This document shows, in pieces, positions 989 through 49,027 of a DNA stretch of 55,243 bases (positions within the stretch are counted from its first letter, which is position 1; the number at the start of each line of letters is the position of its first letter). The notes under the pieces were generated by a model. The model was not told the origin of the DNA. It saw only the letters and a list, made by a program, of their open reading frames with translations, and made no database searches. Source of the stretch: a virus (Duplodnaviria; Caudoviricetes). Location of the stretch: the IMG/VR virus record IMGVR_UViG_3300025669_000038, positions 1 through 55,243 of that record. One strand, given 5' to 3'. Both the position numbers and the translations under genes were made by a program.

Positions 989-1098
989 TCGTGCCTCCTA
1001 GATAAAGAGACTGGGTATCCCATCTGAAGCAATCCGCGACCAATTCGCGAATTGGACGTTCCTAACTCTTCGTAGGGATACCCAATCAGTCTGCTCAT
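985..1098 (-). CDS. 37-aa leader ORF translationally coupled to the annealase
   Basis: SD GGAGGT, ATG at 1098, MSRLIGYPYEELG...RRHE*; stop overlaps annealase ATG; lies within a long hairpin. Confidence 0.4.
   Translation of the reverse strand: MSRLIGYPYEELGTSNSRIGRGLLQMGYPVSLSRRHE
1009..1087 (-). other. Long imperfect hairpin with central perfect 16-bp palindrome
   Basis: GACTGGGTATCCC...GGGATACCCAATC arms around CCAATTCGCGAATTGG; the arm mismatch is a G-U pair on the minus-strand RNA. Confidence 0.7.
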
Positions 1099-1127
1099 TC
1101 GTCTAACCTCCGCAGATCAGATGATCC

Positions 1128-1160
1128 ATCCTATCATTTTTCGAGAGGTAGGTCAAGAGG
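1128..1160 (-). promoter_or_regulatory. Sigma70-type promoter with CCTCTYGA direct-repeat operator (copy 1)
   Basis: CCTC-TTGACC-17-TAGGAT with TG extension; CCTCTTGA-N4-CCTCTCGA. Confidence 0.75.
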
Positions 1161-2553
1161 CCTCTGCTTCCTTCTCCTCTTCTGCGGGACTGAGTTCTTC
1201 TGCCCTCAACGCCAGCATTTCCTTCTCTCCAACAACGTACCCGCCATCAATCAGTATTGAGACTTCTGGGCCATTCCCAACGCGCTCGATCCAGATATGG
1301 GCGTCATACTCCTTCGCCAGCGCGTACATCAATTCCATGTTCTTGTCATCCAATAGCGAGCCATCGTGAATCAGCATGATCGGCAGCATCGGCCTGTTCT
1401 CATCTGGGCAATCATCAGTCGTCGCTAGGGCTAATCCCATACCTACTGATACTCGCCACATCTCGGCCTGAGAACATTGCTCGAACGGGATCTCGTTGAA
1501 CGTCACGCCGGCATCGCCAAACCCAAGCCCTGCGACAGGGAACTTGGCCTTTTTCACCGCATCTGTTTTCTTCTGCACGAGAGCTTTAATCTCCGCAGTC
1601 AATGCAGCGGACTTCTCCGTAGCTGCGCTCAGAAACTCTATCTGGTTCTCATAGTCCGCGTTCTCGGATATCTTCGCGTTCAGTCCTTGTGCCCCTGAGA
1701 TCTTGTCTCGGATTTCGTCTTCGTCCTGATCAACCAAATCATCGATAGCTAGAGCTCCGGCATTGCGTTTCTTCGTTGCCGCGTCAAGCGCGCGTTGCTT
1801 ATCAGCTAACAGTTTTTCCGCTTTAGCCACATTACTCTCAAGCGTATCAACATCACGCAGTATCGAGTCCACAGTCAACGCCAGATTCTTTTGCTCGCTG
1901 CGCTTTCCCTCGTTCGTGGCATTCACGTTCTGGCGAGATGACAGCTCATCCATCAAGTCGCTGACGGACACCATCAGTACCGGCGCATCGTCGTGGAATG
2001 TCATCTCCTCGAAGACGGCTTTCAGGGCAACGGCTTCCTTATTGACGGTGGTTCGTTCTGCATACTTCGCAGCTCGTTGTTCTTCGAGCTTCGACGTATC
2101 AACGCCCGTCAGCATCTTCAGGGTTTCCAACTGCTTCGGCGGTTTCTGATTCACAAACGCCAAAGGATCGAACGTGAGGATCCCAACCAGTTCATCGAGG
2201 ACGTCTTGGGGTGAGTTCGGCTCCCATCCTTCGCTGTTCGTGACCTTCAGATACGAATTCGTCAACGTAAATGTCCGAGTGACAATCAGCCACGGTTTCC
2301 ACGTCTTATTTACTTTCTTTGAGATCGTCACCCCGATAGAAGCGTGATCCTCACCGTCTCGTATCGGCTTCTTAGGGCAAAGAGCCATGCCACCCAACGC
2401 ATACGAAATACAGTCAATCGTCGATGATTTCCCAGCTGCGTTCTCTCCACCAATCACAATCACGTTCTCGCCTTCTGGCGGCGTGATGTCGATAGCGTGA
2501 ATTCGCTTGATGTTCTCGGCCACTAACCTTGTGACTCGAACGGTTTCGCGCAT
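1153..2553 (-). CDS. SMC/Rad50-like coiled-coil ATPase
   Basis: Walker A GENAAGKS, long coiled coil, signature-like SQAE, Walker B MLIHDGSLLD. Confidence 0.8.
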   Translation of the reverse strand: MRETVRVTRLVAENIKRIHAIDITPPEGENVIVIGGENAAGKSSTIDCISYALGGMALCPKKPIRDGEDHASIGVTISKKVNKTWKPWLIVTRTFTLTNSYLKVTNSEGWEPNSPQDVLDELVGILTFDPLAFVNQKPPKQLETLKMLTGVDTSKLEEQRAAKYAERTTVNKEAVALKAVFEEMTFHDDAPVLMVSVSDLMDELSSRQNVNATNEGKRSEQKNLALTVDSILRDVDTLESNVAKAEKLLADKQRALDAATKKRNAGALAIDDLVDQDEDEIRDKISGAQGLNAKISENADYENQIEFLSAATEKSAALTAEIKALVQKKTDAVKKAKFPVAGLGFGDAGVTFNEIPFEQCSQAEMWRVSVGMGLALATTDDCPDENRPMLPIMLIHDGSLLDDKNMELMYALAKEYDAHIWIERVGNGPEVSILIDGGYVVGEKEMLALRAEELSPAEEEKEAEAS

Positions 2554-2575
2554 TTCATTTCCTCCTCTTTTCTCC

Positions 2576-2645
2576 GCTCGCTTGCCTCGTCGGACACAGA
2601 TACGAGCCTACTGTGTGACGATCCCGCCCCGGAGAGCAGGATCGT
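2576..2645 (-). promoter_or_regulatory. Structured intergenic leader (two hairpins, possible pseudoknot)
   Basis: 12-bp stem 2618-2645; 6-bp stem 2594-2616 whose loop GCUCGU can pair with GCGAGC just upstream of the SD. Confidence 0.45.
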
Positions 2646-2650
2646 TTCGG

Positions 2651-3457
2651 CTAGGGTGCTGAACACAGGCCGGGAGGAAAATCGGCACACCCTATCCCCT
2701 CTACTAGCTCTTTCTCCCACGTCACGTCTTGCTCATCGAGATACTGCGATACGTCAAACCAAATCTTGAAGCTGTTCCAGACAGTCTGCCATCGTTCGTC
2801 CGGCTTGATCGCTTTCAGGTCAACCAGGCGAATCGCATGGCGAACCATTGCAGCTCGCAACTTCTCGATGTCTTCAGGCCAGGTGAAATTTGACAGGCTC
2901 GCTATCATCCCGTCTGACAGGTCTCTGATGTCTTGAACGACCTTCGCTTCGCTCCGACCTCGCCGATGTACCAGCTCTTCTGCAAACTCTTCTGTCGGCA
3001 CAAACACGTGACATCCTTCGGCCGTTGGATCTTCACATGCCTCGAGCCCGTTGTTGAATTTCACACAGTTTCCGCAGATGCCCCAGCCTTCTAGATTCAC
3101 GATTTCAATCCCAGCGGGCGCAGGCTTTATGGCGTCAGCCAGTACCCGCTTGCCTGTTCCGCCGCATTCGCCGCAAACGCACGGCACATCTTCGACCGCG
3201 AATCCGCTTCCTCCTCGTTCCTTCTCGTACTCGCCGGTGCCATCACACGCTTCGCAGATCTCATATCCCCGGTTCGCCATCCACGCGTCGAGCGAATCTT
3301 TAGCCTCGCCCCACGACATACCGAACGATTCCATGAGAGCCGGAATTGCAGCAATCATGTTTCCAGCCCAGGACCCCGCCCTACCAGCCTTGAAGCCGTC
3401 GAGGAATAGCGCGGAATAATACGGCCAATTTTCTGGCCTGGCTCGTGATTCGCTCAT
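2651..3457 (-). CDS. Multi-module protein with DnaJ-type Zn-finger repeats
   Basis: CEACDGTG and CGECGGTG (CxxCxGxG) plus a further Cys cluster; start placed at ATG 3457 after SD GGAGG. Confidence 0.65.
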   Translation of the reverse strand: MSESRARPENWPYYSALFLDGFKAGRAGSWAGNMIAAIPALMESFGMSWGEAKDSLDAWMANRGYEICEACDGTGEYEKERGGSGFAVEDVPCVCGECGGTGKRVLADAIKPAPAGIEIVNLEGWGICGNCVKFNNGLEACEDPTAEGCHVFVPTEEFAEELVHRRGRSEAKVVQDIRDLSDGMIASLSNFTWPEDIEKLRAAMVRHAIRLVDLKAIKPDERWQTVWNSFKIWFDVSQYLDEQDVTWEKELVEGIGCADFPPGLCSAP

Positions 3458-3498
3458 TTCGTTTTCCTCCTGTTGTCTGTTCCCTGTGTCCATGACTT

Positions 3499-3531
3499 AC
3501 CTTAGCACGTTTCGAGAGGTTTGTCAAGAGG
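3499..3531 (-). promoter_or_regulatory. Sigma70-type promoter with CCTCTYGA direct-repeat operator (copy 2)
   Basis: TTGACA-17-TAAGGT with TG extension; CCTCTTGA-CAAA-CCTCTCGA. Confidence 0.8.
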
Positions 3532-3560
3532 AAGCAGCAAAGGATTTGCAAAGGGTTATC

Positions 3561-3592
3561 AAACAGAAAAGCCCGTCCGCGAACGAACGAGC
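3561..3592 (-). terminator. Intrinsic terminator
   Basis: GCUCGUUCG-UUCG-CGGACGGGC stem followed by UUUUCUGUUU. Confidence 0.8.
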
Positions 3593-3645
3593 CTTCCCTG
3601 AATGAGCGAAACACGCACTACGCTGGAAGAAGTACGGGTTTACCC
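3561..3645 (-). ncRNA. Putative ~83-nt small RNA (sRNA-A)
   Basis: Bounded by a near-consensus promoter (3650-3678) and an intrinsic terminator (3561-3592); no SD-led ORF inside. Confidence 0.65.
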
Positions 3646-3649
3646 GGAC

Positions 3650-3678
3650 ATCATAGCACAGCTCTGTCTTGCGGTCAA
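3650..3678 (-). promoter_or_regulatory. Sigma70-type promoter of sRNA-A
   Basis: TTGACC-17-TATGAT with TG extension. Confidence 0.8.
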
Positions 3679-3801
3679 CACACAACTCTTGCAGTCATCG
3701 TCCGTACGGCCCCATTGCCTTCGTATAGGGTTGTAGGTGTAATTGCCCGGTTGAAGACGTTTACGACCCCGCTAACTTCCTCGTGGGGGCTCATGGCAAG
3801 G

Positions 3802-3894
3802 CTATAGATTCCCGGTTGTCAACAACCCGAGGAATATCCCAATCACAATACCGATCAGCGCTGCAATGATCCCTTCAAGCATCCACCAGATCAC
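3802..3894 (-). CDS. 30-aa single-TM peptide
   Basis: GTG overlapping lipoprotein stop; MIWWMLEGIIAALIGIVIGIFLGLLTTGNL. Confidence 0.5.
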   Translation of the reverse strand: MIWWMLEGIIAALIGIVIGIFLGLLTTGNL

Positions 3895-4739
3895 AGCACG
3901 CTCGAAGGCGTCTGAACTGATCCACACCCGATGTACGGGTTGGCCGGTATCATCTGAACGTCCAGCGTTGTAGCACCTTGCTCATCTTCCCACGTTGTCG
4001 TGATTGTTACGTCTGTGCCTTGCCGCGTATCTGTCGGCCACTTCAATCCGCATGTAGCGCCTCCAGGATAGCCAGACACCCCCCAGTCAGGCGGCGAGTA
4101 TGGAAGCATCGTAGGATTAGAACTGTGACTGTCGATGAACAAACCCCACCCCTGAATGAACATGAAGGCATTGTAGATCATCCGCCCAGTGTCAAGCCTG
4201 ACGTGATACTCTTCGATCGTGCCATCCCACGGGAACGCCCCAGTATAAGGAGGGCAGAACACGGCAAGCCCTCCGTATATCCCCCACTCGACTGTGGCGT
4301 CAATTAGTTTGATGGGCCCACCTTCAGGATCGTAGGCGCGGGGATAGGTTATGATGTACCGTTCCCTCGCGTGCAGTGTCCACTGATTAGTGATGAAGTT
4401 GATAACAAGCCGCCCAGGGACAGGGCCAGTATTGCGAAGCCAGATCGTCTCAGTAGTCGTCTGTGAATCGCTGCCATCGAACCAAACTACCGTCACATCA
4501 GTTGGCAGCGCATTGATGGTAACGATCAGCGTGTTGTTGGTCTGAGTGTACGTCTTGCCTTCAACTGAGAACGTATATTGCCCTCCCGTCACACCAAGCG
4601 CAATCAAGGTCACTTCGCATGGCGGGTAGGAGGAATCGGGAACGGACAGAGTAAGCGTGCTGACTGTGCTTGTAGGGAAACACCCAGCCAACCAGCCGAG
4701 TGGAACAATTAACAGGAAAAGTAGAAGTATTCGCTTCAT
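3891..4739 (-). CDS. Lipoprotein with beta-rich (Ig/PKD-like) domains
   Basis: MKRILLLFLLIVPLGWLAG-C lipobox; SD GGAGGT before ATG 4739; YDPEGGPI motif. Confidence 0.7.
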   Translation of the reverse strand: MKRILLLFLLIVPLGWLAGCFPTSTVSTLTLSVPDSSYPPCEVTLIALGVTGGQYTFSVEGKTYTQTNNTLIVTINALPTDVTVVWFDGSDSQTTTETIWLRNTGPVPGRLVINFITNQWTLHARERYIITYPRAYDPEGGPIKLIDATVEWGIYGGLAVFCPPYTGAFPWDGTIEEYHVRLDTGRMIYNAFMFIQGWGLFIDSHSSNPTMLPYSPPDWGVSGYPGGATCGLKWPTDTRQGTDVTITTTWEDEQGATTLDVQMIPANPYIGCGSVQTPSSVL

Positions 4740-4744
4740 TCCGC

Positions 4745-4825
4745 ACCTCCAAGTACGAGAACGCGCGCGGGGCAACTCGTATTACCCCGCGACTGCGCAA
4801 GGAGGGCAACCTTCATCAGGCTGCC
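4745..4825 (-). promoter_or_regulatory. Structured intergenic leader (two hairpins, possible pseudoknot at SD)
   Basis: Stems 4805-4825 and 4766-4791; apical UACGAG complementary to CUCGUA at 4754-4759 next to the SD. Confidence 0.5.
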
Positions 4826-4827
4826 TT

Positions 4828-5352
4828 TTACAGATCGATGTCGAAGTCAATCCTCAGACCGAACAACGGGCGCAATAGCCAGTTGCTCGTGGATACCTGC
4901 CACGGGATATTCAGCCCGGCCCATATCTCGAGCGGACCAACATACCCGGACGTCATGAATCTAGGAACCAAGGCCACCATTAGAATGTCCGCCGGATAGT
5001 TCATGTTGTAGGTGATGTCGCACGCGAATGTAATCTCGCATCCGTAGATGAGCGTTCCTGCCGTGTTGACGATCGCCTGTTGGTCGAATCCGATGTTTGA
5101 TTCAAACCCCAAACCCATGTCGTTGTCTGAGTCTAGAAGATCGGCGTCGTCATACGTAAATCCGACGTTGATAAACCACGCAGGCGAAAGCATCCCCTCG
5201 AGCGTAATCCCTGCATCCAGAGTGGGCGATGGTACAACGCCGCCGACAATCTCAGGAACGTTCACCTCAACCCACGGATTCAAACTCGGCCCTGCGAAAG
5301 CGACCGCCGACATTGCCAACATCAAAAGCGATAGAACTAATGCCTTTTTCAT
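4828..5352 (-). CDS. Secreted protein, probable small outer-membrane beta-barrel
   Basis: Signal peptide MKKALVLSLLMLAMSAVAFA; alternating amphipathic beta strands ending LFGLRIDFDIDL. Confidence 0.55.
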   Translation of the reverse strand: MKKALVLSLLMLAMSAVAFAGPSLNPWVEVNVPEIVGGVVPSPTLDAGITLEGMLSPAWFINVGFTYDDADLLDSDNDMGLGFESNIGFDQQAIVNTAGTLIYGCEITFACDITYNMNYPADILMVALVPRFMTSGYVGPLEIWAGLNIPWQVSTSNWLLRPLFGLRIDFDIDL

Positions 5353-12949: not shown

Positions 12950-12984
12950 AAAAATGGAAAGGCTCTGAGCGCCAACTCAGAGCC
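12950..12984 (-). terminator. Intrinsic terminator-like hairpin inside the tail operon
   Basis: Perfect 9-bp stem GGCUCUGAG/CUCAGAGCC followed by UUUCCAUUUUU. Confidence 0.7.
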
Positions 12985-13023
12985 AAAGACGCCTTCTCAT
13001 CACGAGAGTTAAGAGGTCTATTG
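12950..13023 (-). ncRNA. Putative ~70-nt small RNA or attenuator (sRNA-B)
   Basis: Between promoter 13030-13058 and terminator 12950-12984. Confidence 0.5.
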
Positions 13024-13029
13024 AGTAGT

Positions 13030-13058
13030 AGTATAGCTAAATTCCAGAGTATAGTCAA
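13030..13058 (-). promoter_or_regulatory. Sigma70-type promoter
   Basis: TTGACT-17-TATACT. Confidence 0.75.
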
Positions 13059-22446: not shown

Positions 22447-22489
22447 CGAACACGCGGCTCAGACTATTCCACGCCACGCTCATTCACCC

Positions 22490-37416: not shown

Positions 37417-37851
37417 TCATCCTCCCCCGTGCTCATTCATCGTCTGAGGCTTGAACATCCACCACGGCGAAATCGTGATATATTCTGCTTTGGCGATGAG
37501 ATCGTTCAGATCGCGTATTGTGTTTTGGATCTCGCGCTTGATCTCAAGCCCTTCTAGTCCTTGTCCGAGTGTTGCATCGTCAGATATTAGAGCTGTCTGC
37601 TGCTCTATTGTGCGCTCTAACGCCGCAATCTTGAATGGGATTGATAAGCACGTCGTGTGCTGACTGATTGTTATTAGCACACTAATCCCTAGGGCTACAA
37701 TTAACAGCACACTTCCTAATGCTGATAACCATTCAGCTCCTTTATGTTTTATAAACGCCAACCCTGTGACAATCAGGCTGATAGACACCACGCACAAGCT
37801 ACACAACAACCACACAGTAAACACCACGCCTCCTTTGAAACAAACCACCAA
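37417..37851 (-). CDS. Membrane protein, two TM helices plus coiled coil
   Basis: Two hydrophobic segments; AT-rich. Confidence 0.6.
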   Translation of the reverse strand: MVVCFKGGVVFTVWLLCSLCVVSISLIVTGLAFIKHKGAEWLSALGSVLLIVALGISVLITISQHTTCLSIPFKIAALERTIEQQTALISDDATLGQGLEGLEIKREIQNTIRDLNDLIAKAEYITISPWWMFKPQTMNEHGGG

Positions 37852-38681: not shown

Positions 38682-38939
38682 CTAACCAGAATGGACTATA
38701 TAGTACAGCCCGCAGACAACACACCGCGCGGATGTTTCCCATTCGGCTGTGCGTAACACCTCAAACCTCTTCGATCCGCAGCCACGGCAAACTAGACGAT
38801 CAAACGGTTCGTTGTCTGACGTAAACTCCTCTGTGCGTCTACCTTTATTCCATGTTTTAAGCGTTCCTTCACTCCACGTCATATCATTGCGCTTGACATT
38901 ATCCGCGCTAGGATTTAATACTCCTTCACACTCATTCAT
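38682..38939 (-). CDS. Small Zn-ribbon protein
   Basis: CRGCG...CVVCG; SD GGAGGA. Confidence 0.6.
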   Translation of the reverse strand: MNECEGVLNPSADNVKRNDMTWSEGTLKTWNKGRRTEEFTSDNEPFDRLVCRGCGSKRFEVLRTAEWETSARCVVCGLYYIVHSG

Positions 38940-39102
38940 CGTCTTGTTCCTCCCTCACTAAATCCTGCCCTTCTAACAACCCCTCGTGAGGATCGCTTTC
39001 AGCTTTTCTTTGGTGTCGTCATCCAATGACGGGGACGCAATTAAGGCATATAGTAAATCGGTCATGTCGTTGTAGCGACTCATCACTCCTCCCTGAGAAT
39101 AT

Positions 39103-39463: not shown

Positions 39464-40057
39464 TTACTCTTCCAGGTATTTCGTAAGCTTCATTATGCCA
39501 GTCGCTTCATCTACCCAACTGCGTGGCACTAATACCATCGGTTCAAGCGGTCTATATTCGTGCATCCCTCCAAACCTCGAACAGCAATCAGGGCACCCCA
39601 GATACACTCCTGGGCATCTGTACCCAGGGAATCTCGGTGTTGGGTCTGTAATCGTTATCCATCTGGCGTTGTGACTGCCGCAACAAGTGCATTCGACTGT
39701 GCCATAAAGCTCTTCCTTTGCCGCCCTGAGCTTCTGATTCATTTCCTCCTTAATCTCTTTCTCTATAATGGTGCCTATTGGAACCTCTGCCCAGTATGTA
39801 ACTCCCTTCACCTGCCTATCGTACGATCCGAAATCAACCCATCCGCGAGGACCTGGGCCTCCTCCCAAAGCGCAACCTCCATTTTGCGACATGGCGACAT
39901 CTTCGCTCACGAACCGCGCCATTCTCATCGTCGGTGTTTCTTGCTTAGTATCCACGACAACGAAAAACTCCTTCGCGTAATTGTATTCTGGCAATCTATC
40001 AGCAGCAGATACAAAGTGTAGCTCTACAATTGTCTTATCCATAACGCACTCATTCAT
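39464..40057 (-). CDS. DUF551-like domain plus Zn-ribbon protein
   Basis: SAADRLPE...VTYWAEVP; CTCC and CPDC; SD AGGAGG. Confidence 0.6.
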   Translation of the reverse strand: MNECVMDKTIVELHFVSAADRLPEYNYAKEFFVVVDTKQETPTMRMARFVSEDVAMSQNGGCALGGGPGPRGWVDFGSYDRQVKGVTYWAEVPIGTIIEKEIKEEMNQKLRAAKEELYGTVECTCCGSHNARWITITDPTPRFPGYRCPGVYLGCPDCCSRFGGMHEYRPLEPMVLVPRSWVDEATGIMKLTKYLEE

Positions 40058-40087
40058 CGTCTTGCCTCCTGTTTTTATGCGTGACTC

Positions 40088-45333: not shown

Positions 45334-45590
45334 AGCCCCTCCCACTTATCCGGCGCGGCGAGCGCAGCCAAGTCGTGAAAATCCACAACCCTCACCGACA
45401 GTCCAAAAGCCGTCTCGTGCGAAACAAAGATGTCGTTCCCATGACCCCCGCCACAGATCTCCTCAGCCTCTTCACGAGAATACTTCCCAGCGTTAGTCAA
45501 GCTTGACGTGTACCCTGCTCTCAGTGGTTTCCAGAACAGGCACTTCCCTTGAGCCTTCTCCTTGGTCGTCACTATCACGAATCCGCTCAT
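45330..45590 (-). CDS. Conserved-looking phage protein (FW..xxxGYT..AGxYSxEEA motif)
   Basis: FWKPLRAGYTSSLTNAGKYSREEAE; SD GGAGGA. Confidence 0.6.
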   Translation of the reverse strand: MSGFVIVTTKEKAQGKCLFWKPLRAGYTSSLTNAGKYSREEAEEICGGGHGNDIFVSHETAFGLSVRVVDFHDLAALAAPDKWEGL

Positions 45591-45659
45591 TTATCCTCCA
45601 GTACTATGCCGTCGAGCCAACCGCACTTTCCTCAGACAGCATCTATATCCTTGTTTCTG

Positions 45660-47059: not shown

Positions 47060-47535
47060 GGCGACTCCTCAGAATGTCCGATGTCTTCAGCCGTCATTAG
47101 GACCGTACTCACGTCACGATACAACTCGCTCCACTGCTGCGCTGACATCTCAACCGATGACGTGTCTGCGAAGATGTACTCAAACCTCTCGGCCGCGAAC
47201 ATCCGATGCCATGCGTAGATTCCTTGGGCCTTGTTGCCCAGATGCTCTTCCAACAACAACCAAGCTGCGTGCGGTGTATCCGCGATCACCCAGGCGCTAT
47301 AGCAACCAGCAACCCCTACCCACAATCTGATTTCGCTCATCCCTTCCTCCATCGCCGCATCCTTCAGAGCTTTGTCGATCCAACAGGTAGGACCATGCGT
47401 TTGCGCCAACCCGCAAGCGGGGCACAGCAGGAACAGCCCTGATACCTCGCCATGATCGGTTTCAGGCACACAGTGTTCGATCTCTCGCAGCTTCTCGCCA
47501 TCAACCAGCACCCACTTCAATCTTGGTTCGCTCAT
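47056..47535 (-). CDS. Hypothetical protein, probably two fused genes
   Basis: Internal SD GGAGGAAGGG plus ATG 47340 (MSEIRL). Confidence 0.55.
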   Translation of the reverse strand: MSEPRLKWVLVDGEKLREIEHCVPETDHGEVSGLFLLCPACGLAQTHGPTCWIDKALKDAAMEEGMSEIRLWVGVAGCYSAWVIADTPHAAWLLLEEHLGNKAQGIYAWHRMFAAERFEYIFADTSSVEMSAQQWSELYRDVSTVLMTAEDIGHSEESP

Positions 47536-47910
47536 TCGTTTAACCTCCTCAGATCAGATGGTTCATCCTACCCCTTTTTGGCAAATACCTTCTCAAGACC
47601 CATATAGGCCAGAACAGCATTGTCGCCCCAGCAGCCACATTGTCACCATATTTGTAGTTGCGAGAAGCGTGCCAGATACCTATCGCCAAATATGTAACGA
47701 TTGATACAATGATTCCCGCTGTCATTCGTCCAACTCCTTTCGCTTACAGTCGATCCTGCAGCTTCATCATCAAGACGGCTGCTTCTGACGTAGAACATTT
47801 GAGCAGCTGATAGTTTCCACTAGCATCAACCACTCCGACATAGATGTGTACCACGCCTTTCCTTATCTCCACTGTCACGCTTTGCATGTCGCTCATTCAT
47901 CCTCCCCGCA

Positions 47911-48457: not shown

Positions 48458-49027
48458 TCATGACACAGATTCTACTTCGGCGTCACTGCGATCTCCTGAG
48501 AGGCCCAGAGCACGTTCATGGTGTATTGGGTTGTTTGCGTCGCCGCGAACGCTTGGGGCGGTCATAGGATCTCTGACACCGGCTGTTCTGAGTATGCGGA
48601 GGGCTTCACGAATCTCAAAGTAATACCGGGCCGCGGCACCATCCCCAGCGTATACCGGATCGCCTTGCCCTTCATCTAACACATCGTTATTGGCTACGAA
48701 CAATCCGAGCGCACCAGTTAACGCTCTCGCAACTCGCTCCAGATCGGCTCCTGTCAACTTGTCTTGTGGTTTCGGCCATCCACCATTCTCGTATTTAACT
48801 TCACCGTTGTACACTACGCCACGCGACATGTGAGCCAGCCCTGTGTTATCGAGGGATGATCCATCCAGCGTATTCACGTAGTGGCCACAGTCCAGGCAGA
48901 AGACAACGTACATACTCTTGATTAGGAGATCTAGCTTGCCGTGGACTATTGCTATGGAACCAGCAGGGACATAATTCCTATGAAGGCATACATCCTGCTT
49001 CTCTTGCGGTTTCTGCTCATTCATCAT
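48458..49027 (-). CDS. Hypothetical protein with N-terminal Zn site
   Basis: CLH...CLDCG. Confidence 0.55.
   Translation of the reverse strand: MMNEQKPQEKQDVCLHRNYVPAGSIAIVHGKLDLLIKSMYVVFCLDCGHYVNTLDGSSLDNTGLAHMSRGVVYNGEVKYENGGWPKPQDKLTGADLERVARALTGALGLFVANNDVLDEGQGDPVYAGDGAAARYYFEIREALRILRTAGVRDPMTAPSVRGDANNPIHHERALGLSGDRSDAEVESVS

What the first reader, a model, noticed from the sequence alone, without database searches (positions are those of the whole stretch)
3561..3678. Stand-alone small RNA antisense to the start codons of many phage genes: candidate RNA-based lytic-gene silencing system
Seen: a near-consensus promoter (TTGACC-17-TATGAT) and a UUCG-loop intrinsic terminator bracket ~83 nt with no SD-led ORF. 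Just 5' of the terminator the RNA reads UUUCGCUCAUUCA (3599-3611). This is complementary to minus-strand mRNA over AUGs at 981-990 (annealase, 10 nt), 1093-1100 (its leader ORF, 8), 3449-3458 (the next gene, 10), 47331-47340 (10), 47527-47537 (11), 47889-47899 (11), 49015-49023 (9), 45584-45591 (8), 38929-38938 and 40047-40056 (10 with one G-U), 37431-37439 (9) and 22477-22486 (10). The first genes behind operator promoters 1, 2 and 3 are all on this list. The RNA also carries a CU-rich anti-SD-like tract (CUUCUUCC). Established: P1 C4 and P4 CI RNAs give RNA-based phage immunity, but against one or two targets. Inference: one trans-acting sRNA represses translation of a whole early regulon in a phage with no recognisable CI. 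Caveat: ATGAGC/ATGAATGAG starts are common, so the enrichment needs a statistical test.
Basis: partly seen in the sequence, partly recalled or inferred. Interest (0 to 1): 0.85.

Follow-up and report, generated by a model that had tools for sequence, protein, structure and literature searches.

The report
Candidate phage antisense RNA to neighbouring gene
Between the late and early genes of an uncultured salt-lake phage lies a short promoter-to-terminator unit carrying an inverted copy of the first bases of the next gene, so its RNA could block that gene's start codon, but no RNA data or informative relatives exist to prove it.

Summary
The sequence features are real. On the minus strand there is a sigma-70-like promoter (3678-3650, 10 of 12 plus TGn), an ~80-nt non-coding body and a 15-bp hairpin with a U-tail. 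All 12 quoted complementarities exist.

The strongest signal is not the "regulon". The RNA body (3628-3601) is an imperfect inverted copy of positions -1 to +27 of the adjacent gene (3458-3431): 21 of 28, with a 14-of-15 core and 10 perfect over the AUG. This is the top outlier among 93 gene starts. Genome-wide shuffles reach it in 11 of 1024 (15-nt window) and 5 of 1024 (28-nt window). None of 951 starts in 80 distant phage loci reaches it.

Multi-target support is partial.
- Seed matches exceed shuffles and nearly all other coding-strand windows.
- Three quoted sites are not gene starts, and several targets are repeat copies.
- The early-versus-late contrast is not significant (p=0.07).
- Loop-tolerant energy scans do not favour starts.

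There is no Rfam hit, no RNA run and no informative relative.

Best reading: an antisense element against the neighbour's start, acting in cis on read-through transcripts and/or in trans. Confidence is about 0.45.

The parts
3650..3678 (-). Sigma-70-like promoter: TTGACC (3678-3673), 17-nt spacer ending in TGc, TATGAT (3655-3650)
   Evidence: 10 of 12 with TG before the -10. It is one of only four >=10/12 sites on the coding strand of the whole window. Two of the other three are the repeated early promoters. This is a consensus match only; the total count of promoter-like sites is not above shuffles.
3562..3643 (-). Predicted ~80-nt non-coding transcript. The start is inferred 5-9 nt after the -10 (3645-3641); the end lies in the U-tract.
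   Evidence: No SD-led ORF. No Rfam family at gathering score, or at E<=10 for any sRNA family of phages. No tRNA or tmRNA.
3609..3641 (-). 5' hairpin (stems 3641-3638/3612-3609 and 3636-3631/3619-3614) with an 11-nt apical loop at 3630-3620. The CUUCUUCC tract is at 3632-3625.
   Evidence: MFE and centroid folds.
3599..3611 (-).
   Evidence: Permuting only the 10-nt linker: 0 of 42 variants give as many start regions bound at <=-14 or <=-16 kcal/mol.
3601..3628 (-). Upstream arm of the inverted repeat: the RNA stretch complementary to the adjacent gene's start region
   Evidence: 28 nt, 75% complementary, 142 nt between arms. (14 of 15 core). (shuffles).
3561..3598 (-). Intrinsic-terminator-like hairpin (15 bp, UUCG loop; core stem 3588-3571) followed by UUUUCUGUUU (3570-3561)
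   Evidence: It is also the first terminator after the last late-region ORF (3927..3802), so it would end the late operon too.
3499..3531 (-). Early promoter P_3527 (TTGACA-17-TAAGGT), one of four copies of a conserved operator-type promoter. It lies between the two arms.
   Evidence: Transcripts from here lack the upstream arm.
3431..3458 (-). Downstream arm: positions -1 to +27 of the adjacent gene, including the AUG at 3457-3455
2651..3457 (-). Adjacent target gene: 268-aa near-orphan protein with a CxxC zinc-ribbon insert. It is the first gene of the ATPase / Rad52-like annealase / YqaJ exonuclease operon. SD AGGAGG, 8-nt spacer.

Best explanation
The unit is a short non-coding RNA element sitting between the end of the late region and the early promoter P_3527. 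Its body carries a decayed inverted copy of the first ~28 nt (-1 to +27) of the next gene downstream. RNA containing it can therefore pair across that gene's AUG and first codons and block 30S binding.

Two routes are possible and not exclusive.
- In cis: any transcript that reads through the terminator, from the element's own promoter or from the late operon, folds so that the early gene's start is sequestered. Transcripts from P_3527 lack the upstream arm and stay open.
- In trans: the terminated ~80-nt RNA, from its own promoter and/or as the 3' end of the late mRNA, pairs with P_3527 transcripts.

Cross-pairing with a few other early starts that share GAAUGAGCGA is possible but secondary.

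Shown: the sequence features, the complementarity and its rarity, and the predicted folds. Inferred: that the RNA is made, that pairing happens in vivo, and that it represses translation.
For: - Inverted repeat 3628-3601 / 3458-3431: 21 of 28, with 10 perfect over the AUG.
- It is the top outlier of 93 gene starts for upstream self-complementarity: 14 of 15, with the next best at 13 and 11.
- In 1024 genome-wide dinucleotide shuffles, the maximum over all 93 genes reaches 14 of 15 in 11 and 21 of 28 in 5.
- None of 951 gene starts in 80 distantly related phage loci reaches 14 of 15; the maximum is 13.
- Predicted folding: the AUG has P(unpaired) 0.69 in a P_3527 transcript but 0.07 in read-through transcripts, with seed:start pair probabilities of 0.8-1.0. 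The long-range helix is in both the MFE and the centroid of the 261-nt fold.
- The arm lies between a near-consensus promoter and a strong hairpin/U-tail, in a non-coding gap.
- The + strand ATGAGCGA occurs once in the window, here, against 6 on the coding strand.
Against: - No evidence that the RNA exists: no RNA holder was listed.
- No conservation test was possible. The only contig with the locus is identical across a 2.1-kb block, from 5390 to 3237. The covariance model finds nothing in 80 relatives' loci. The one diverged homologue of the target gene has a different N-terminus, and its DNA could not be fetched.
- A neutral inverted duplication would give the same repeat.
- Promoter-like sites overall are not more frequent than in shuffles.
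- In a loop-tolerant duplex scan, the adjacent start ranks only about 9th genome-wide, behind internal sites that use G-U pairs.
- One low-depth contig of a near-identical strain diverges from the window just upstream of P_3527 (at 3531). The element may therefore be absent from some variants.
- Seed accessibility depends on the unknown start site.
Confidence: 0.45

Rival explanations
1. One reading: a stand-alone trans-acting sRNA represses translation of many early genes at once by pairing with a shared start-codon box. It would be an RNA-based silencing system for the early regulon.
For: - 12 of 94 start regions have >=8 nt complementarity, against a mean of 3.3 in 2000 shuffles (fraction reaching it 0.0005).
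- This is the only coding-strand place of 11032 windows with that count.
- With both hairpins kept, 0 of 42 permutations of the 10-nt linker bind as many starts at <=-14 or <=-16 kcal/mol.
- Structure-aware cofold: starts are bound better than internal windows, 14 of 96 against 4 of 126 at <=-12, Mann-Whitney p=7e-5.
- Perfect 10-11-nt matches exist at 47535, 47896, 988 and 47340.
- The first genes behind three of four operator promoters match.
Against: - The targets are not independent. 47535 and 1098 share a ~45-nt leader cassette. 40057, 38939 and 37440 share AGACGATGAATGAG. 45590 and 45333 are duplicates.
- 3 of the 12 sites are not gene starts.
- No target other than the neighbour shows complementarity beyond the core (read from the sequences).
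- Early versus late: 7 of 54 against 1 of 40, p=0.073; at >=10 nt, 3 of 54 against 0 of 40, p=0.19.
- Plain duplex energies: starts are no better than internal sites, p=0.78.
- The top-scoring sites genome-wide are internal.
- Shuffling 16 nt, which also opens the 5' hairpin, gives as many or more bound starts in 28 of 32 variants at <=-12.
- AGC as second codon is simply common here, 10 of 94 genes.
- No expression or conservation data.
Confidence: 0.15
2. No RNA-pairing function. The hairpin is just the terminator of the late operon, the promoter match is fortuitous, and the inverted repeat is a decaying relic of a small inverted duplication or recombination at the gene's 5' end.
For: - The terminator is where a late-operon terminator is expected, directly before an early promoter.
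- Promoter-like sites are no more frequent than in shuffles.
- The + strand copy even keeps a similar reading (MSETRTTLE against the gene's MSESRARPE), as a duplication would.
- This phage holds several duplicated leader/start cassettes.
- The locus shows no informative conservation.
- A variant contig diverges at 3531.
Against: - The perfect 10-nt core sits exactly over the AUG, and in the RNA it falls in the linker between two hairpins.
- The promoter is one of the four best coding-strand matches in 55 kb, with an extended -10, and is correctly placed 60 nt ahead of the terminator.
- Such a repeat is absent from 951 other phage gene starts.
Confidence: 0.3
3. Invertible promoter switch: the two inverted-repeat arms flank a 142-bp segment holding P_3527 and the SD. 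Inversion would turn the early operon off and point the promoter the other way.
For: - Inverted arms flank a promoter, and both arms begin with the same AATGAGCGAA start.
Against: - The arms are only 75% alike.
- No serine or tyrosine recombinase is found in the window; the record is 76% complete.
- No strand-changing joint appears in the contigs of the 4 runs laid. This is low depth, and contigs drop rare forms.
- The + strand ORF has no homologue.
Confidence: 0.03
4. The + strand ORF 3602-3736 (44 aa, starting ATGAGCGAA) is a real small divergent gene. The 'seed' is merely its start codon read from the other strand.
For: - An open frame of 44 codons with the phage's favoured ATG-AGC-GAA start.
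Against: - No SD upstream (read).
- No + strand promoter-like site in 2500-5000.
- No homologue by the word-based search at 24-77 aa.
- It would be the only + strand gene in the window.
Confidence: 0.02

Closest known systems
c4 antisense RNA of phages P1/P7 (immI operon c4-icd-ant)
   Same: A small RNA encoded upstream of, and co-oriented with, its target genes. It pairs with complementary sequence around the ribosome-binding site of the downstream message and blocks expression. (Passages read in PMC12197685, and PMC8198154. The original Citron & Schuster 1990 paper was seen only as a reference.)
   Different: No sequence or structure homology: there is no Rfam hit at gathering score or at E<=10. 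Here there is one contiguous arm over the AUG and first codons, rather than loop-borne segments. The unit has its own terminator, whereas c4 is, from my recall, processed out of the operon transcript. A separate promoter lies between the RNA and its target. The target's function is unknown, with no antirepressor similarity found.
IsrK of the Gifsy-1 prophage
   Same: The layout is promoter, sRNA, Rho-independent terminator that is partly read through into the downstream genes. The short form acts in trans on the long read-through form. (Passages read in PMC4825925.)
   Different: IsrK activates translation of the downstream antirepressor, whereas pairing here would occlude the AUG. There is no homology. 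Read-through here is only assumed.
CI RNA of satellite phage P4
   Same: An RNA made from the same leader region pairs with complementary sites in nearby transcripts to shut down downstream early genes. (Passage read in PMC4825925.)
   Different: P4 uses two target sites (seqA, seqC) flanking CI and causes premature transcription termination. Here only one inverted pair is found in 3380-3900, and it covers a start codon.
sar RNA of P22 and OOP RNA of lambda (cis-antisense regulators)
   Same: Small phage RNAs that block translation, or destabilise the mRNA, of a single neighbouring regulatory gene. (Passages read in PMC12197685.)
   Different: Those are transcribed from the opposite strand across the target and are fully complementary. 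This element is on the same strand, 142 nt upstream, with imperfect complementarity.
VpdS of vibriophage VP882 (Hfq-bound trans-acting phage sRNA)
   Same: A phage sRNA reported to influence several phage and host mRNAs. It is the nearest precedent for the multi-target reading. (Passages read in PMC12197685.)
   Different: VpdS promotes replication and is experimentally shown. Here multi-target action is only a statistical hint.

Membership tests
C4 antisense RNA family (Rfam) | Match to the family covariance model | tested here: not met
   There were 0 matches at gathering score over the whole window. At E<=10 in 3400-3800 only four weak, unrelated matches appeared, none of them C4.
C4 antisense RNA family (Rfam) | Encoded upstream of and co-oriented with the target, with complementarity at the target's ribosome-binding region | tested here: met
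   The arm 3628-3601 lies 142 nt upstream of the complementary 3458-3431 on the same strand and covers -1 to +27. This is a functional resemblance only.
P4 CI RNA type immunity | Two complementary target sites flanking the RNA, and termination control | tested here: not met
   Only one inverted pair is found in 3380-3900.
Trans-acting base-pairing sRNA (generic, Hfq-type layout) | Own promoter and Rho-independent terminator with a U-tail | tested here: met
   Consensus matches only. No transcript data.
Trans-acting base-pairing sRNA (generic, Hfq-type layout) | Single-stranded seed | tested here: inconclusive
   P(unpaired) over the 13 nt depends on the start site. With a start at 3645 most positions are about 0; with a start at 3641 most are about 1.
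Trans-acting base-pairing sRNA (generic, Hfq-type layout) | Seed and structure conserved in relatives, with covariation with targets | tested here: inconclusive
   The only other copy is identical. There is no homologue in 80 relatives' loci, in IMG/VR by exact 19-mer, or by promoter pattern.
Trans-acting base-pairing sRNA (generic, Hfq-type layout) | A discrete transcript is expressed | not testable with these tools
   No RNA holder was listed among the 24 runs.
Invertible promoter segment (inverton) | Inverted repeats flanking a promoter | tested here: met
   but the arms are only 75% alike.
Invertible promoter segment (inverton) | A site-specific recombinase, and both orientations present in reads | tested here: not met
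   There is no PF00239 or PF00589 match in the window, which is a 76%-complete record. No strand-changing joint appears in the contigs of 4 runs, which is weak evidence.

The most novel reading that the evidence does not exclude
A single ~80-nt phage RNA, made from its own promoter and also as the 3' end of the late operon, shuts off translation of several early operons late in infection. It would do so by pairing with a shared start-codon box (GAAUGAGCGA) at the first genes behind the operator-type promoters. This would be an RNA counterpart of a protein translational repressor of early genes, having evolved from an inverted copy of one target's 5' end.
Probability: 0.15. Interest if true: 0.75.

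Novelty: new member of a known kind. Interest (0 to 1): 0.35.

Why it matters
If real, this is a new, Rfam-unlisted phage regulatory RNA in an uncultured salt-lake phage. Its mechanism would resemble P1 c4 and Gifsy-1 IsrK: a same-strand upstream RNA that masks the start of the first gene of an early recombination operon.

It would also show an antisense regulator caught close to its origin as an inverted duplication of its target's 5' end. And it would give a simple way to insulate an early operon from late-operon read-through.

The broader claim, one RNA controlling many early genes through a shared start box, would be of more interest but is only weakly supported. As it stands this is a reasonable candidate, not a demonstrated system.

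Tried and rejected
- Rfam: nothing at gathering score, and nothing relevant at E<=10. tRNA/tmRNA: none.
- Relatives by the adjacent protein: none in IMG/VR or in genome contigs. One JGI contig, L004, was found but is identical over the locus. It has 45 differences in 4772 aligned columns, none between 5390 and 3237, so there is no conservation signal.
- Relatives by the ATPase: no close ones. 80 loci at 34-42% identity were fetched, and covariance model R1 found nothing in them below E=1.8.
- Exact-pattern scans: the 19-mer in IMG/VR gave 0 hits. The promoter pattern in IMG/VR gave 0 hits. The promoter pattern in genome contigs gave 4 single hits, about what chance predicts by my own estimate.
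- Sequencing runs: no RNA holder was listed. Contigs of 4 DNA runs were laid. They give low, patchy cover with no difference listed inside 3550-3700, but 11 rows were not shown and one record carried 4 unlisted differences. No conclusion can be drawn. One contig runs on unlike the window from 3531, and its loose end is not elsewhere in the window.
- Plain duplexfold energies: uninformative, because they build long looped duplexes.
- The 16-nt seed shuffle is a poor control because it also opens the 5' hairpin. It was replaced by linker-only permutation. Both are reported.
- The + strand ORF has no homologue.
- The adjacent protein has only one full-length relative among 1.84 billion representatives, so the target's function stays unknown.
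- Supplementary files of papers were not consulted. Supplementary Table S1 of PMC12197685 (38 uncharacterised phage sRNAs) might list something similar.

Full report
**Context.** The window is a whole IMG/VR virus record of 55,243 nt. It is linear and CheckV estimates it as 76% complete. Salt-lake metagenomes hold it. All plausible genes are on the minus strand. Read 5'->3' on that strand:
- The late/structural region runs down to small envelope-type genes ending at 3891 and 3802.
- Then comes a ~340-nt non-coding gap.
- Then an early operon: a 268-aa zinc-ribbon near-orphan at 3457..2651, an SMC/SbcC-like ATPase, a Rad52-like annealase and a YqaJ exonuclease.

Replication genes, a ParB-methyltransferase and the terminase lie at the other end of the window.

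**What is at 3561-3678.** On the minus strand:
- TTGACC-17-TATGAT with TG before the -10 (10 of 12). It is one of only four >=10/12 matches on the coding strand of the whole window, and two of the others are the repeated early promoters. The total number of promoter-like sites is not above shuffles, so this is a good motif and not proof.
- The predicted RNA (about 3643-3562) folds into a 5' hairpin, a 7-10-nt single-stranded linker and a 15-bp hairpin followed by UUUUCUGUUU. The fold is -29.6 kcal/mol with z -3.48.
- No SD-led ORF is present.
- Rfam gives nothing. ARAGORN gives nothing.
- The hairpin is also the first terminator after the last late ORF, so late transcripts should end here and carry the same sequence at their 3' end.

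**The quoted complementarities.** All 12 are in the sequence. Three are not gene starts: 22483, 37436 and the internal AUG at 47340. At 49027 the match is offset from the called start. The "anti-SD" tract is complementary to GGAAGAAG, not to the phage's GGAGG.

**Is the match to start codons more than chance?**

By exact k-mers, yes.
- 12 of 94 start regions match at >=8 nt and 3 at >=10 nt. The means over 2000 dinucleotide shuffles are 3.3 and 0.19, and the fractions of shuffles reaching the observed counts are 0.0005 and 0.0015.
- Among 11,032 natural 83-nt windows of the coding strand, this is the only place with 12 at >=8 nt, and one of two at >=10 nt. If the match must overlap the start codon, it is one of four places at >=8 nt and one of two at >=10 nt.
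- With a structure-aware cofold measure, starts are bound better than internal windows: 14 of 96 against 4 of 126 at <=-12 kcal/mol, p=7e-5.
- Permuting only the 10-nt linker never reproduces the native counts at <=-14 or <=-16 (0 of 42). It reaches them in 2 of 42 at <=-12 and 3 of 42 at <=-10.

Against:
- Plain duplex energies do not separate starts from internal sites (p=0.78).
- A genome scan puts internal G-U-containing sites first.
- Shuffling 16 nt, which also opens the 5' hairpin, gives as many or more bound starts in 28 of 32 variants at <=-12 and 15 of 32 at <=-16.
- Early versus late starts is only a trend: 7 of 54 against 1 of 40, p=0.073.
- The targets are not independent:
  - 47535 and 1098 share a ~45-nt leader/SD/start cassette.
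  - 40057, 38939 and 37440 share a 14-mer.
  - 45590 and 45333 are duplicates.
  - AGC is the second codon in 10 of 94 genes, although it is about 1.3% of internal codons.

**The stronger finding.** The RNA body is an inverted copy of the neighbouring gene's 5' end.
- Arms 3628-3601 and 3458-3431 are 21 of 28 complementary. The core is 14 of 15, with 10 perfect bases over the AUG.
- Even the + strand reading (MSETRTTLE) resembles the gene's MSESRARPE, as a duplication would.
- Of 93 genes tested for complementarity between their start region and their own upstream 250 nt, this one is the clear outlier: 14 of 15, with the next at 13 and 11.
- In 1024 genome-wide shuffles the maximum reaches 14 of 15 in 11 and 21 of 28 in 5.
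- Among 951 gene starts in 80 distantly related phage loci, none reaches 14 of 15.
- None of the other quoted targets extends beyond the shared core (read).

So the specific partner is the adjacent gene. The other matches follow from the start motif that this gene shares with other early genes.

**How it would work.**
- Folding predicts that the AUG of gene 3457 is open in transcripts from P_3527 (P(unpaired) 0.69).
- In any transcript that includes the upstream arm, the AUG is paired (0.07), with seed:start pair probabilities of 0.8-1.0.
- The element could thus silence the early gene on read-through from the late operon or from its own promoter (cis). As a terminated ~80-nt RNA it could also act in trans on P_3527 transcripts.
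- This is the logic of P1 c4 and of Gifsy-1 IsrK's short and long isoforms, and partly of P4 CI (passages read in PMC12197685, PMC8198154 and PMC4825925). There is no homology to them.

**What could not be tested.**
- Expression: no RNA holder was listed.
- Conservation: the one other copy is identical within a 2.1-kb identical block.
- A low-depth contig of a near-identical strain diverges from the window exactly upstream of P_3527. This hints that the element may be a mosaic insert.
- No integrase or resolvase is in the window, so a lysogenic-immunity role has no support.

**Verdict.** The "early-regulon silencer" interpretation is only partly supported. The best-supported reading is an antisense element against the neighbouring gene's start, acting in cis and/or trans (confidence about 0.45). 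A non-functional relic of a duplication plus an ordinary terminator is the main rival (about 0.3). It would be a new member of a known kind of phage regulator. Interest is moderate to low until an RNA is shown.

Noticed in passing
window 12951-13058 (minus strand): A second promoter / short RNA / terminator unit in mid late operon. It has TTGACT-17-TATACT (10 of 12) and a ~70-nt AT-rich body, then a perfect 10-bp hairpin with a T-rich tail. It lies between the 1201-aa gene and the next gene. The 77-nt fold is -25.4 kcal/mol, z -2.4.
   Followed up: partly
window 1090-1135 and 47530-47575 (minus strand): A ~45-nt repeated cassette: TAGGAT, then ATCTGATCTG, then GGAGGTTA, then ACGAATGAGC. It covers a -10 box, leader, SD and start. 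It heads the 36-codon ORF at 1098 behind operator promoter 1, and also gene 47535 (which has no matching -35).
   Followed up: partly
window 40044-40062, 38926-38944, 37427-37445 (minus strand): Three copies of AGACGATGAATGAG. Two are at SD-led starts of genes beginning M-N-E-C. The third lies inside the 3' end of gene 37848..37417.
   Followed up: no
window 3537-3554 (minus strand): Direct repeat CCTTTGC-N4-CCTTTGC with an 11-bp period, just upstream of the -35 of P_3527. It lies between the terminator and the promoter and could be a protein-binding site.
   Followed up: no
window 3304-3531, run X18 record 3: A low-depth contig (depth 3, with 3 differences) matches up to 3531. It then continues for 41 nt with sequence found nowhere in the window. 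This points to a strain variant or a chimeric assembly with different DNA upstream of P_3527.
   Followed up: partly
window 2651-3457 (minus strand): The target protein is a near-orphan, with one full-length relative among 1.84 billion representatives. That relative lacks the ~43-aa CxxC zinc-ribbon insert and has a different N-terminus.
   Followed up: partly
whole window: AGC is the second codon in 10 of 94 called genes, against about 1.3% of internal codons. ATGAGCGA occurs 6 times on the coding strand against 0.84 expected.
   Followed up: yes
whole window: No tyrosine or serine recombinase domain was found by six-frame family search. The record is 76% complete, so the lifestyle is undecided.
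   Followed up: partly
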